A stretch of 64,000 nt of DNA, from NCBI RefSeq assembly GCF_030384885.1, contig NZ_CP128613.1; one strand, given 5' to 3'. Under the pieces are notes generated by a model. The model searched no databases. It had not been told where the DNA came from and saw nothing but the letters and a program-made list of their open reading frames with translations. This DNA is from Escherichia coli (GTDB taxonomy: Bacteria > Pseudomonadota > Gammaproteobacteria > Enterobacterales > Enterobacteriaceae). Positions 54,654 to 57,901 of the stretch are shown in pieces. Numbering within the stretch: position 1 is the first letter of the stretch; each line of letters starts with the position of its first letter. A program made the translations under genes and the position numbers.

Positions 54654-56724
54654 TCTGGCCGCGATGCTGCGCCTGCCCGCAAACCTGAAATCGACACAAT
54701 GGCAGATCCTTGCCGGACCGATTTTGATCCTGTTGATCTTGTCGATGATGGTGCTGCCACTGCCCGCATTCATACTCGACCTGCTGTTCACCTTCAATAT
54801 TGCCTTGTCGATCATGGTGTTGCTGGTCGCGATGTTTACCCAGCGCACGCTCGAGTTTGCTGCGTTTCCGACCATTCTGTTGTTTACCACCCTGTTACGT
54901 CTGGCACTTAACGTGGCTTCAACCCGTATCATTTTGATGGAAGGGCATACTGGCGCGGCGGCGGCAGGGAAGGTGGTCGAAGCGTTCGGTCACTTCCTCG
55001 TTGGTGGCAATTTCGCTATCGGTATCGTGGTGTTCGTCATTCTCGTGATCATCAACTTTATGGTTATTACCAAAGGTGCCGGGCGTATCGCAGAAGTAGG
55101 CGCGCGCTTTGTTCTCGATGGTATGCCAGGAAAGCAGATGGCGATTGATGCCGACCTTAACGCCGGACTGATTGGTGAAGATGAGGCGAAAAAACGCCGC
55201 AGTGAAGTCACTCAGGAAGCCGATTTTTACGGCTCAATGGACGGAGCAAGTAAGTTTGTTCGCGGCGATGCCATCGCCGGGATCCTCATCATGGTCATTA
55301 ACGTTGTCGGCGGATTGCTGGTCGGTGTGCTGCAACATGGCATGAGCATGGGACATGCGGCGGAAAGTTATACGCTATTGACCATTGGTGACGGTCTGGT
55401 AGCACAAATCCCGGCGCTGGTGATTTCTACCGCCGCGGGGGTTATCGTTACGCGCGTCAGCACTGATCAGGATGTTGGCGAACAGATGGTGAATCAGCTT
55501 TTCAGTAACCCGAGCGTTATGTTGTTAAGCGCCGCCGTGCTCGGTTTACTCGGCCTGGTGCCTGGAATGCCGAACCTGGTATTTTTGCTGTTCACTGCCG
55601 GATTGCTGGGGCTGGCCTGGTGGATCCGCGGACGCGAACAAAAAGCGCCTGCCGAACCAAAACCGGTAAAAATGGCAGAGAATAATGCCGTTGTCGAAGC
55701 AACGTGGAACGATGTTCAACTGGAAGATTCTCTGGGAATGGAAGTGGGTTATCGACTGATCCCGATGGTCGATTTTCAGCAGGATGGTGAACTACTGGGT
55801 CGTATTCGCAGTATTCGCAAGAAATTTGCTCAGGAAATGGGCTTTCTGCCGCCGGTAGTACACATTCGCGACAATATGGATCTGCAACCTGCCCGCTACC
55901 GTATTTTGATGAAAGGCGTGGAGATAGGCAGTGGTGATGCATATCCGGGGCGCTGGTTGGCAATAAACCCAGGTACCGCAGCTGGAACGTTACCTGGAGA
56001 GGCGACCGTCGATCCGGCATTTGGTCTGAATGCTATCTGGATTGAAAGTGCGCTAAAAGAACAGGCGCAGATTCAAGGGTATACCGTGGTTGAGGCCAGC
56101 ACGGTGGTGGCTACGCATCTTAACCACCTCATAAGCCAGCATGCCGCAGAGCTGTTTGGTCGTCAGGAGGCGCAACAGTTGCTGGATCGTGTCGCTCAGG
56201 AGATGCCAAAGCTGACGGAAGATCTCGTGCCTGGCGTCGTCACGCTCACCACACTGCATAAAGTGCTGCAAAATCTGCTCGATGAAAAAGTCCCGATTCG
56301 CGATATGCGCACTATTCTCGAAACGCTGGCGGAACATGCGCCCATCCAAAGCGATCCACATGAATTAACCGCCGTCGTGCGCGTGGCGTTAGGACGGGCT
56401 ATAACCCAGCAGTGGTTTCCTGGCAAAGATGAAGTCCATGTTATTGGCCTCGATACACCGCTGGAACGTTTGTTACTACAGGCCTTGCAGGGTGGGGGCG
56501 GATTGGAGCCTGGGCTGGCGGATCGTTTACTGGCACAAACTCAGGAAGCGCTATCCCGTCAGGAGATGCTGGGTGCGCCGCCAGTATTATTGGTGAACCA
56601 CGCGCTGCGACCATTATTGTCTCGCTTCCTGCGTCGCAGCCTGCCGCAGTTAGTGGTGCTGTCGAATCTGGAACTATCAGATAACCGACATATCCGTATG
56701 ACGGCGACGATTGGCGGCAAATAA
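54646..56724 (+). CDS. flhA: Flagellar export apparatus protein FlhA
   Basis: 692-aa product MSNLAAMLRLPANLKSTQWQILAGPILILLILSMMVLPLPAF... within track ORF 54571..56724; 8-nt overlap with flhB. Confidence 0.95.
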   Translation: MSNLAAMLRLPANLKSTQWQILAGPILILLILSMMVLPLPAFILDLLFTFNIALSIMVLLVAMFTQRTLEFAAFPTILLFTTLLRLALNVASTRIILMEGHTGAAAAGKVVEAFGHFLVGGNFAIGIVVFVILVIINFMVITKGAGRIAEVGARFVLDGMPGKQMAIDADLNAGLIGEDEAKKRRSEVTQEADFYGSMDGASKFVRGDAIAGILIMVINVVGGLLVGVLQHGMSMGHAAESYTLLTIGDGLVAQIPALVISTAAGVIVTRVSTDQDVGEQMVNQLFSNPSVMLLSAAVLGLLGLVPGMPNLVFLLFTAGLLGLAWWIRGREQKAPAEPKPVKMAENNAVVEATWNDVQLEDSLGMEVGYRLIPMVDFQQDGELLGRIRSIRKKFAQEMGFLPPVVHIRDNMDLQPARYRILMKGVEIGSGDAYPGRWLAINPGTAAGTLPGEATVDPAFGLNAIWIESALKEQAQIQGYTVVEASTVVATHLNHLISQHAAELFGRQEAQQLLDRVAQEMPKLTEDLVPGVVTLTTLHKVLQNLLDEKVPIRDMRTILETLAEHAPIQSDPHELTAVVRVALGRAITQQWFPGKDEVHVIGLDTPLERLLLQALQGGGGLEPGLADRLLAQTQEALSRQEMLGAPPVLLVNHALRPLLSRFLRRSLPQLVVLSNLELSDNRHIRMTATIGGK

Positions 56725-57116
56725 TGAGAGCCTTATTAGCAATATTATTGTTTCCGCTGCTGGCGCAAGCCGCCGGGGAGGGGATGTGGCAGGCGAGCAG
56801 TGTGGGCGTTACGTTAAATCACCGTGGTGAATCGATGTCGTCAGCGCCTCTTTCTTCGCGACAACCTGCATCAGGATTGATGACGCTGGTTGCGTGGCGT
56901 TATCAGCTTATCGGCCCAACTCCCGTAGGGCTGCGGGTTCGCTTGTGTTCACAATCTCGTTGTGTCGAATTAGAGGGGCAGAGCGGAACCACCGTGGCCT
57001 TTTCCGGTATACCGGCGGCAGAACCGTTGCGATTTATCTGGGAAGTGCCTGGCGGCGGGCGGTTAACTCCGCCGCTAAAAGTACAACGTAATGAAGTGAT
57101 TGTGAATTATCGCTGA
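56724..57116 (+). CDS. flhE: Flagellar protein FlhE (periplasmic, signal peptide)
   Basis: 130-aa ORF MRALLAILLFPLLAQAAGEGMWQASSVGVTLNHRGESM...; ATG overlaps the flhA stop by 1 nt. Confidence 0.9.
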   Translation: MRALLAILLFPLLAQAAGEGMWQASSVGVTLNHRGESMSSAPLSSRQPASGLMTLVAWRYQLIGPTPVGLRVRLCSQSRCVELEGQSGTTVAFSGIPAAEPLRFIWEVPGGGRLTPPLKVQRNEVIVNYR

Positions 57117-57174
57117 AGGACAAATAAAAATTACGCGCTCGCGGCATGTTTAATAACTCAGTGAAAAAGGCTCG

Positions 57175-57220
57175 ATGTTTTGTTGCAATTATTTATCAGG
57201 AATAGCTTGCAACAAAACAT
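57175..57220. terminator. Long perfect inverted repeat between convergent flhE and yecT (probable bidirectional terminator)
   Basis: atgttttgttgcaa-(18-nt loop)-ttgcaacaaaacat, 14-bp perfect stem. Confidence 0.45.
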
Positions 57221-57236
57221 GCCAAAAATATGTGAA

Positions 57237-57746
57237 TTATCCTCTTGTCAAAGGGCTTGGATAAAAATCTTCAGAGTTACGGTATAACTGCAACTGGCGA
57301 GTTCGCGTATTGGTCTGTATGATCATACATGAGAGCCATTCTGATTCAGAATAAGGGGCACTTAAATCCTGAACGTCTTCATTTGAAAGGATTAATTCAC
57401 ATTCTTTGTCCCTAAAATCCAGCCAGGCTCGTTGTGATTTTTTAAGCAAGTTAAGTTGTTCGGTATCAGGTTTTTTGACACCTGTGCGTGGTACTTGTTC
57501 TATATAACGATAAGCTTCACCATAAGCTTTATTTAATTGCGCATCGACGAGATTGTATTCTTGTCGCAGGCATGATTTGATCACGTTAATGTCAGTATCA
57601 TCATCTGAATTTTTTTGCCAACAATCTTTGATGGCTGAAATGTCATGGTCATTGACTATAACCGTATCTTCTGCGTAAGCCTGGCAAGAGATAATGCCTA
57701 ATGTTAATACAAGAAATTTAAACACTGCGGTATTCCTTAAATTCAA
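57237..57746 (-). CDS. yecT: DUF1311 (lysozyme-inhibitor LprI-like) family secreted protein, YecT-like
   Basis: 169-aa ORF with signal peptide MNLRNTAVFKFLVLTLGIISCQAYA; position between flhE and argS matches yecT. The symbol is assigned by synteny. Confidence 0.6.
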   Translation of the reverse strand: MNLRNTAVFKFLVLTLGIISCQAYAEDTVIVNDHDISAIKDCWQKNSDDDTDINVIKSCLRQEYNLVDAQLNKAYGEAYRYIEQVPRTGVKKPDTEQLNLLKKSQRAWLDFRDKECELILSNEDVQDLSAPYSESEWLSCMIIQTNTRTRQLQLYRNSEDFYPSPLTRG

Positions 57747-57848
57747 CCGTTATCGTTTCCCTGGGGCCGGATATTACGCTTCTGGCCTCTTATCCAATAG
57801 TGAGAAAACAGTGGCATGTCCATTTTCAGAATACATTTAGATGGCAAT

Positions 57849-57881
57849 AAAAAAGCCTGATCAGGTAACCCTGATCAGGCT
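57849..57881 (-). terminator. Rho-independent terminator of argS
   Basis: agcctgatcagg-taac-cctgatcaggct (12-bp perfect stem) with an A-run on the plus strand, giving a U-run on the argS transcript. Confidence 0.8.
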
Positions 57882-57901
57882 TCACTCTCACGAAAAATCG
57901 A

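What the first reader, a model, noticed from the sequence alone, without database searches (positions are those of the whole stretch)
57175..57220. Perfect 14-bp inverted repeat with an 18-nt loop between flhE and yecT
Seen in sequence: atgttttgttgcaa...ttgcaacaaaacat between two convergent genes. It has neither the T-run of a typical intrinsic terminator nor REP-like sequence. It could be a bidirectional terminator, or, given the spacer, a protein-binding palindrome.
Basis: seen in the sequence. Interest (0 to 1): 0.2.

Follow-up and report, generated by a model that had tools for sequence, protein, structure and literature searches.

The report
Stem-loop at the end of yecT
The perfect 14-bp inverted repeat is real and conserved, but it is most likely just the hairpin that ends or protects the yecT transcript, inside a small AT-rich gene islet that a third of E. 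coli strains lack; it is probably not a two-way terminator.

Summary
Arms 57175-57188 and 57207-57220 are 14 nt, perfectly complementary, 18 nt apart. This is the longest perfect inverted repeat in the 64-kb window and is far beyond chance. It is therefore terminator-shaped only for yecT, whose stop codon lies 13 nt upstream.

For flhE there is no U-tract. In E. coli K-12, published 3'-end mapping places the flhE mRNA end about 93 nt beyond the hairpin, inside antisense yecT, near a Rho-sensitive region.

The hairpin occurs once per genome. It is found only with yecT, in 3613 of 5426 complete E. coli genomes plus E. whittamii and Escherichia sp. E1V33. It lies at the edge of a roughly 730-785 bp AT-rich islet. 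Strains without the islet have a canonical bidirectional terminator between flhE and argS.

All 28 arm positions are unchanged in species about 10% diverged, while the adjacent spacer is only 59% identical. The commonest E. coli allele (K-12 type) has one arm change that gives G.U in yecT-sense RNA but C.A in flhE-sense RNA.

Best reading: an atypical 3'-end hairpin of yecT (long AT-rich stem, large loop). No 3'-end data exist for yecT, which is silenced. Ordinary; low interest.

The parts
57175..57188 (.). Left arm of the perfect inverted repeat (ATGTTTTGTTGCAA)
   Evidence: Invariant in 6 of 7 Escherichia sequences; K-12 type has T->C at 57179.
57189..57206 (.). 18-nt spacer/loop (TTATTTATCAGGAATAGC). 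It can form a short inner helix: 4 bp on the - strand, 6 pairs including G.U on the + strand.
   Evidence: Loop positions 57190-57192 and 57206 vary between strains. IS1 is inserted here in strain CAVP819.
57207..57220 (.). Right arm (TTGCAACAAAACAT)
   Evidence: Invariant in all 7 aligned Escherichia sequences.
57169..57171 (.). GGC that pairs with GCC 57221-57223 across a 3-nt bulge (57172-57174), closing the stem next to the T-run
   Evidence: MFE and centroid structures on both strands; conserved in the alignment.
57221..57223 (.). GCC partner of the stem extension
57164..57168 (-). T5 run (A5 on + strand) directly 3' of the extended stem in yecT-sense RNA; candidate U-tract and predicted yecT 3' end
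   Evidence: tail score 3.84. Conserved in K-12, O157 and E1V33 but replaced by GTTTAAC in E. whittamii.
57237..57725 (-). yecT (LprI/DUF1311 family). Its stop codon lies 13 nt upstream of the hairpin.
   Evidence: RefSeq annotation of an identical genome; ORF.
56724..57116 (+). flhE, last gene of flhBAE. Its stop codon lies 52 nt before the stem base.
57117..57845 (.). AT-rich (37-40% GC against about 55%), variably present islet carrying the hairpin, yecT and most of yecV. The whole 785-bp flhE-argS spacer (57117-57901) is replaced by a 52-bp spacer in yecT-less E. coli. The right limit at 57845 is inferred from a weak match (p about 0.035) of that spacer to the argS terminator side.
57224..57314 (+). 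flhE 3'UTR beyond the hairpin, antisense to the yecT 3' end. The K-12 flhE 3' terminus (1962384) corresponds to about window 57313.
   Evidence: PMC10687069 Suppl. Data 3 and file 6; coordinates mapped through.

Best explanation
The inverted repeat encodes the 3'-end stem-loop of the yecT transcript. When yecT (minus strand) is transcribed, the RNA folds 13 nt after the stop codon. It forms a 17-bp AT-rich stem (14 perfect pairs plus GGC/GCC across a bulge) with an 18-nt loop, followed by UUUUU. This is expected to act as an atypical, probably weak, Rho-independent terminator and as a barrier to 3'-to-5' exonucleases. The element arrived with, and stays with, the AT-rich yecT islet. It does not terminate flhBAE: those transcripts lack a U-tract after the stem and run through it into antisense yecT, where they end at a weakly structured, U-poor site in a Rho-sensitive region. 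Shown: anatomy, strand asymmetry, linkage to yecT, conservation of the arms, and the flhE 3' end lying elsewhere in K-12. Inferred: that yecT transcripts actually end at or are protected by this hairpin.
For: (1) Strand asymmetry. The T5 run directly follows the extended stem only on the yecT strand, with tail score 3.84 against 0.14. The score equals that of the argS terminator (3.83), which has a mapped 'Primary' 3' end at 1961848. (2) Position: 13 nt after the yecT stop codon, 52 nt after the flhE stop codon. (3) Linkage. The hairpin is present in 3613 of 5426 complete E. coli genomes, a median of one place per genome (at most two). Every full-length hit listed lies next to yecT, and about 3549 genomes carry the intact flhE-hairpin-yecT stretch. 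yecT-less genomes (IAI39, W46) have a 52-bp flhE-argS spacer with a canonical bidirectional terminator instead. (4) Against E. whittamii, identity is 59% with indels for the segment from the flhE stop to the hairpin, but 94.5% for the hairpin and 94% for yecT. All 28 arm positions are identical, against a background of 82-90% in neighbouring non-coding DNA and about 90% in the flanking genes. (5) The only arm polymorphism (K-12 type, exact in 2449 genomes) leaves yecT-sense RNA unchanged (G.U, -21.0 against -20.9 kcal/mol). It weakens flhE-sense RNA (C.A, -20.3 against -24.0). (6) flhE transcripts do not end at the hairpin in K-12.
Against: No 3' end of yecT has been mapped, because the gene is H-NS-repressed and needs BglJ-RcsB (PMC3950696). 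The key step is therefore inferred. The hairpin is not a canonical terminator: only 4 of 14 (7 of 17) pairs are G-C, the loop is 18 nt, a 3-nt bulge precedes the closing pairs, and the U-run is only 5 nt. The consensus scan did not call it. My rough hand estimates of the d'Aubenton-Carafa and TransTermHP scores (no tool call) are marginal or negative. The U-run is not conserved in E. whittamii (GUUUAAC), although the arms are. Arm conservation is therefore not fully explained by intrinsic termination. The single G.U-compatible substitution had a 50% prior chance of favouring either strand. No compensatory changes are available, so RNA-level and DNA-level constraint cannot be separated.
Confidence: 0.55

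Rival explanations
1. Bidirectional terminator: one hairpin ends both flhBAE and yecT transcripts, possibly helped by head-on polymerase collisions.
For: It is the only strong structure between two convergent genes and folds well on both strands. In yecT-less strains a true bidirectional terminator occupies the equivalent place.
Against: There is no U-tract on the flhE strand: A5 flanks the stem on both sides of the + strand, tail score 0.14. The K-12 flhE 3' terminus lies about 93 nt downstream. A Rho-dependent region was called at 1962401(-). No curated Term-seq end lies at the hairpin. Caveat: K-12 carries the weaker flhE-sense allele, and the perfect allele of this window has not been assayed.
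Confidence: 0.08
2. A structural element of the flhBAE mRNA 3'UTR. It would be an internal barrier to exonucleases after Rho-dependent termination downstream, or an RNase III/E processing site. Alternatively it is part of an antisense overlap by which flhBAE and yecT transcription interfere with each other.
For: The hairpin lies inside the 197-nt flhE 3'UTR mapped in K-12. In the perfect allele the flhE-sense fold is the more stable one (-24.0). Protective stem-loops without U-tracts are the rule at Rho-dependent 3' ends (PMC6061677 abstract).
Against: The steady-state 3' end is not immediately downstream of this hairpin but 93 nt further. The majority allele weakens this strand's hairpin by 3.7 kcal/mol. 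The hairpin is absent from every flhE locus that lacks yecT. The flhE-proximal spacer is poorly conserved.
Confidence: 0.12
3. A DNA-level palindrome: a binding site for a dimeric protein, or a recombination or cruciform site marking the edge of the yecT islet.
For: The arms are invariant across Escherichia species although the yecT U-run is not. The site lies at the left edge of a present/absent islet. Each arm ends in the self-complementary hexamer TTGCAA.
Against: It lies between two 3' ends with no promoter. No second copy or half-site occurs in the window or genome. 14-bp arms with centres 32 bp apart do not resemble usual operators (general knowledge). About 68% of carrier genomes have an imperfect palindrome. 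No similar repeat lies at the other islet edge. It matches neither the attC core sites nor a sigma-54 promoter: on the yecT strand TGGCAT-N6-TTGCA has spacing off by one, and the only sigma-54 site reported nearby is inside argS. The 66 unrelated metagenomic palindromes that share the arm core have different loops and flanks.
Confidence: 0.1
4. No current function: a leftover terminator or structure that came in with the acquired islet, preserved by low divergence and hitch-hiking.
For: yecT is silenced under laboratory conditions. The islet is dispensable in a third of strains. IS1 disrupts the hairpin in at least one isolate.
Against: 28 of 28 arm positions are unchanged at about 10% species divergence, while adjacent non-coding DNA is 59-85% identical. 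Under neutrality the chance is roughly 0.9^28 = 0.05 down to 0.82^28 = 0.004 (my calculation).
Confidence: 0.15

Closest known systems
Rho-independent (intrinsic) transcription terminators of E. coli
   Same: A stem-loop just after a stop codon, followed directly by a U-run on the transcribed (yecT) strand. Its tail score equals that of the neighbouring argS terminator.
   Different: The stem is long and AT-rich (4 G-C in the 14 perfect pairs). The loop is 18 nt instead of 3-8, a 3-nt bulge lies near the base, and there are only 5 U. The consensus scan did not call it, and no mapped 3' end exists.
Bidirectional terminators between convergent genes (for example the flhE/argS terminator AAAAAAGCCGATGTC-tgcaat-GACATCGGCT of yecT-less E. 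coli)
   Same: A palindromic hairpin between convergent genes.
   Different: A bidirectional terminator needs an A-tract upstream and a T-tract downstream. Here A5 lies on both sides of the + strand, so only the - strand sees a U-tract. flhE 3' ends map elsewhere.
[quoted passage not shown]
   Same: A stable stem-loop without a U-tract in the flhE-sense RNA, upstream of a Rho-sensitive region.
   Different: The mapped flhE 3' end is not immediately downstream of this hairpin but 93 nt further, after a much weaker structure (-8.1 kcal/mol).
REP/BIME and other repeated extragenic palindromes; MITEs
   Same: An extragenic palindrome between convergent genes.
   Different: Single copy per genome, no REP sequence, no Rfam family, no terminal repeats.

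Membership tests
Canonical intrinsic terminator | Stem-loop immediately followed by a U-rich tract on the transcribed strand | tested here: met
   Met on the yecT (-) strand: the GCC closing pairs are followed by UUUUUCAC, tail score 3.84. Not met on the flhE (+) strand: 0.14.
Canonical intrinsic terminator | Short G+C-rich stem with a 3-8 nt loop | tested here: not met
   4 of 14 (7 of 17) G-C pairs; an 18-nt loop, or 7 nt if a 4-bp A-U inner helix forms. The consensus scan does not report it.
Canonical intrinsic terminator | RNA 3' ends mapping in the U-tract, independent of Rho | not testable with these tools
   No yecT terminus appears in the held Term-seq/TRS tables. yecT is H-NS-silenced.
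Bidirectional terminator | A-tract upstream and U-tract downstream, so both strands read hairpin plus U-tract | tested here: not met
   A5 lies on both flanks of the + strand. The right-hand A5 is not conserved: GCCAGCAAT in E. whittamii and E1V33.
Bidirectional terminator | 3' ends of both convergent transcripts at the hairpin | tested here: not met
   The K-12 flhE terminus is at 1962384, about 93 nt past the hairpin. The yecT end is unknown.
Protective stem-loop of a Rho-dependent 3' end | Steady-state 3' end immediately downstream of a stable stem-loop lacking U's | tested here: not met
   For flhE-sense RNA the end is 93 nt further on. For yecT-sense RNA it could not be tested.
REP/BIME, ERIC, MITE (repeated palindromic elements) | Many copies per genome with a family consensus | tested here: not met
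   A median of one place per genome, at most two. Only the two arms match in the window. No Rfam hit. Hits outside the chromosomal flhE-yecT locus: none in phages; four 'plasmid' records that look like chromosomal DNA from their sizes, context not inspected.
Transcription-factor operator palindrome | Site near a promoter; motif shared by other sites; palindrome preserved at the DNA level | tested here: inconclusive
   No promoter-like site in the intergenic region. The motif does not recur. The majority allele is 13/14. No binding data could be consulted.

The most novel reading that the evidence does not exclude
The hairpin could be the hinge of a convergent-overlap ('excludon'-like) arrangement created when the yecT islet displaced the original flhE/argS terminator. 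flhBAE transcripts now run about 75 nt into antisense yecT. The conserved stem would then set where the two RNAs overlap or are cut (for example by RNase III), coupling flagellar export-gene expression to a silenced LprI-family gene that may be an orphan type VI immunity gene. Alternatively, the invariant arms could be a DNA site used when the islet was gained or lost.
Probability: 0.06. Interest if true: 0.4.

Novelty: new member of a known kind. Interest (0 to 1): 0.12.

Why it matters
The finding matters little on its own. It documents an unannotated, conserved 3' stem-loop belonging to the yecT islet. It also shows that gaining this islet replaced a textbook bidirectional flhE/argS terminator. 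The new arrangement has flhBAE reading into antisense yecT and ending in a Rho-sensitive region. This is a small, clean example of how a horizontally acquired islet rewires the 3' ends of neighbouring core genes. It also warns against reading every palindrome between convergent genes as a two-way terminator.

Tried and rejected
1. Rfam at permissive E-values returned only noise.

2. By eye, the hairpin's left arm resembled the left half of the IAI39 flhE/argS terminator. Local alignment with shuffles gave the best match to the argS-terminator side of the islet instead (ATAAAAAAGCC-GAT, p about 0.035). The hairpin match, scored by hand, fell within the shuffle range. Rejected.

3. Sigma-54 promoter. 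On the yecT strand TGGCAT-N6-TTGCA has spacing off by one relative to the sites listed in PMC4591121. That study's only nearby site is inside argS.

4. Integron attC. The arms do not fit the RYYYAAC/GTTRRRY core sites (from memory of the consensus).

5. MITE with a target-site duplication. An 11-bp direct repeat TGTGAATTATC brackets the intergenic region, but the segment has no terminal inverted repeats and is single-copy. A repeat of this kind arises by chance in 4.5% of shuffles.

6. Hairpin downstream of distant YecT homologues. The ~60%-identical homologues lie in type VI secretion loci and are followed by PAAR genes, with no such hairpin.

7. More divergent yecT loci for covariation. The metagenomic variants (P0002, P0009, P0010, P0027) were all K-12 or O157 types. 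No compensatory changes exist, so no covariation test was possible.

8. Metagenome scan for the arm core. It returned 11 E. coli-type loci with the same flanks and 66 unrelated palindromes. That number is consistent with the generic background of inverted repeats.

9. Other 3'-end datasets. PMC9023263, PMC6061677, PMC7547250, PMC12259150 and PMC8848933 have no supplementary files held. PMC12207403 held nothing for this locus.

Full report
**Observation**

The window carries ATGTTTTGTTGCAA at 57175-57188 and its exact reverse complement at 57207-57220, with 18 nt between them. flhE (+) ends at 57116. yecT (-) ends at 57237 (its stop codon is 57239-57237).

- It is the longest perfect inverted repeat with a loop of 3-30 nt in the whole 64-kb window.
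- None of 30 first-order Markov shuffles produced an arm of 14 or more.
- The next longest repeat is the argS terminator, with 13-bp arms.
- A 76-nt segment around it folds at -24.0 kcal/mol on the + strand (z -4.5) and -20.9 on the - strand (z -4.6).

The helix continues beyond the perfect arms. GGC (57169-71) pairs with GCC (57221-23) across a 3-nt bulge in the MFE and centroid structures of both strands. On the + strand this extended stem is flanked by A5 on both sides (57164-68 and 57224-28).

- Read on the - strand (yecT sense), the hairpin starts 13 nt after the yecT stop codon and is followed directly by UUUUUCAC.
- Read on the + strand (flhE sense), it is followed by AAAAAUAUG.
- A d'Aubenton-Carafa-style tail score is 3.84 for yecT sense, the same as the neighbouring argS terminator (3.83), and 0.14 for flhE sense.

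The element is therefore terminator-shaped in one direction only. It is still atypical: 4 of 14 perfect pairs are G-C, the loop is 18 nt, and the U-run is short. The consensus terminator scan did not report it, although it did report the argS terminator.

**Where the element occurs**

It matches no Rfam family, has no other copy in the window, and occurs at a median of one place per genome, at most two.

- It is present in 3613 of 5426 complete E. coli genomes. Every full-length hit listed lies next to yecT.
- The remaining third (for example IAI39 and W46) lack yecT and yecV altogether. There flhE is followed after 52 bp by argS.
- That 52-bp spacer holds a textbook bidirectional terminator, AAAAAAGCCGATGTC-tgcaat-GACATCGGCT-(g/t)TTG.
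- In the window, the 785 bp between flhE and argS are 37-40% G+C, against about 55% on either side.

The hairpin is thus the left-hand end of a small AT-rich islet. yecT itself is H-NS-repressed and activated by BglJ-RcsB (PMC3950696).

A scan of representative genomes with YecT found close relatives only in Escherichia whittamii and Escherichia sp. E1V33. Both are at the same locus and both carry the hairpin.

**Conservation**

Compared with E. whittamii:

| Segment | Identity to window |
|---|---|
| flhA 3' part | 90% |
| flhE | 89% |
| Spacer, flhE stop to hairpin | 59%, with indels |
| Hairpin (55 nt) | 94.5% |
| yecT | 94% |
| argS terminator region | 82% |
| argS | 93% |

All 28 arm positions are identical. 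This points to constraint on the arms: roughly 0.9^28 = 0.05 down to 0.82^28 = 0.004 under neutrality, by my calculation. It also shows that the hairpin goes with yecT rather than with flhE.

Loop positions 57190-92 and 57206 vary among strains. The U-run is kept in K-12, O157 and E1V33, but in E. whittamii it reads GUUUAAC. That weakens a purely 'intrinsic terminator' explanation of the conservation.

Within E. coli:

- The perfect form of this window is exact in 390 genomes.
- An O157-type form with perfect arms and a loop variant is exact in 322.
- The K-12 type is exact in 2449.

The K-12 type carries T->C at the position equivalent to 57179. This gives a C.A mismatch in flhE-sense RNA (-20.3 against -24.0 kcal/mol) but a G.U pair in yecT-sense RNA (-21.0 against -20.9). 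This fits an RNA role on the yecT strand and means most strains do not have a perfect DNA palindrome. It is one event with a 50% prior chance of favouring either strand, so it weighs little. No compensatory double changes exist, so covariation could not be tested.

**Experimental 3' ends (K-12; hairpin = 1962477-1962522)**

- The TRS study lists a single flhE terminus, 'Distant primary', at 1962384(-) (peak 1962378-1962390). That is 197 nt after the flhE stop codon, about 93 nt beyond the hairpin and inside antisense yecT. It has a weak local structure (-8.1 kcal/mol) and no U-tract (PMC10687069 Suppl. Data 3 and file 6). It corresponds to about window 57313.
- Adams et al. report a bicyclomycin-sensitive Rho termination region with its peak at 1962401(-), Rho score 4.2, at low coverage (PMC7815308 Suppl. 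file 2).
- Their curated Term-seq list has no 3' end between 1962300 and 1962599 on either strand.
- Caveat: the Rho call uses 800-nt windows and could partly reflect antisense transcripts arising within AT-rich yecT.

Together these data indicate that flhBAE transcripts pass through the hairpin and end further on, probably with Rho's help. No terminus is reported for yecT, as expected for a silenced gene.

**Interpretation**

The best-supported reading (about 0.55) is that this is the 3'-end stem-loop of yecT. It would be an atypical, probably weak, intrinsic terminator and/or an exonuclease barrier. It belongs to the islet and is unidirectional.

When the islet is present, flhE has lost the canonical bidirectional terminator it shares with argS in yecT-less strains. 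It then ends by read-through into antisense yecT.

Rivals:

- A true bidirectional terminator (0.08). It is contradicted by the missing U-tract and the K-12 3' ends, although the perfect allele has not been assayed.
- A structural element of the flhBAE 3'UTR or of a sense/antisense overlap (0.12).
- A DNA-level protein or recombination site (0.10). No promoter, no recurrence of the motif, and the majority allele is imperfect.
- A functionless relic (0.15). Arm conservation argues against it.

**Other checks**

- The arm core TTTTGTTGCAA-N12-24-TTGCAACAAAA was scanned across metagenomes. This gave 77 loci.
- Eleven of them are E. coli flhE-yecT sequences with the same loop and flanks.
- The other 66 are unrelated palindromes with different loops and flanks. 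That number is consistent with the general abundance of inverted repeats.
- The region has no phage match. Its four 'plasmid' matches look like chromosomal DNA, judging by record sizes; I did not inspect their context.
- Distant YecT homologues (about 60% identity) lie in type VI secretion loci and have no such hairpin.

**Verdict**

The feature is real, non-random and conserved, but ordinary. It is a new, unannotated member of a known kind (a gene-end stem-loop) with non-canonical geometry. Interest 0.12.

Noticed in passing
window 57117-57901 (compare L002 4218-4269): The whole flhE-argS spacer is polymorphic in E. coli. About two thirds of complete genomes carry a 785-bp AT-rich segment with yecT and yecV. 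About one third have a 52-bp spacer with a canonical bidirectional terminator. E. whittamii and Escherichia sp. E1V33 carry the long form at the same place, with divergence like the flanking genes, so the islet is old.
   Followed up: partly
L011 2501-2986 and L012 2501-2986 (homologues of yecT, window 57237-57725): YecT homologues of about 60% identity sit in type VI secretion loci. They lie directly upstream of PAAR and IcmF/TssM genes and downstream of large CHAP- or pesticin-domain proteins. E. coli yecT (LprI/DUF1311, 'lysozyme inhibitor' family) may therefore be an orphan immunity gene against peptidoglycan-degrading effectors.
   Followed up: partly
window 57224-57314 (+): In K-12 the flhE mRNA has a 197-nt 3'UTR that overlaps about the last 75 nt of yecT in antisense. 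It ends at a weakly structured, U-poor site near a bicyclomycin-sensitive region. This gives a convergent transcript overlap between the flagellar export operon and yecT.
   Followed up: partly
window 57101-57111 and 57231-57241: An exact 11-bp direct repeat, TGTGAATTATC, brackets the intergenic region. One copy lies in the last codons of flhE; the other spans the yecT stop codon and 3'UTR. It is conserved in all Escherichia sequences examined. A repeat like this arises by chance in about 4.5% of shuffles. There are no terminal inverted repeats. Unexplained.
   Followed up: partly
L006 3051-3820 (strain CAVP819); L007 2288-3001 (strain LCP22S3_I2): IS1 is inserted in the hairpin loop (after ...ttatttatcagg) in one isolate, with loss of the right arm and most of yecT. 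In another isolate an IS1-bounded deletion removes the flagellar region up to the middle of yecT.
   Followed up: partly
window 57143-57151 and 57215-57223: GGCATGTTT upstream of the hairpin can pair with AAACATGCC (the outer half of the right arm plus GCC). This is a possible alternative helix in flhE-sense RNA. It is not conserved in K-12 (GAGTATGTTT) or in E. whittamii.
   Followed up: no
window 57816-57860 (+) and 57853-57882: The 14-codon small ORF yecV ends inside the left arm of the argS terminator hairpin. The terminator has 13-bp arms, a 4-nt loop and a T6 run on the - strand.
   Followed up: no
L021, L052, L076, L051, L058, L089, L054, L092, L046 (metagenome loci): Several unrelated environmental contigs that share the arm core carry arrays of three to six GTTGCAA/TTGCAAC motifs within about 80 bp. 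These look like iterated binding sites for some DNA-binding protein. They are unrelated to the E. coli locus in flanks and loop.
   Followed up: no
L015 620-700: One metagenome-assembled K-12-type variant has a 26-bp deletion directly after the right arm (catg|tcaaaggg). It removes the yecT stop codon and the short 3'UTR.
   Followed up: no
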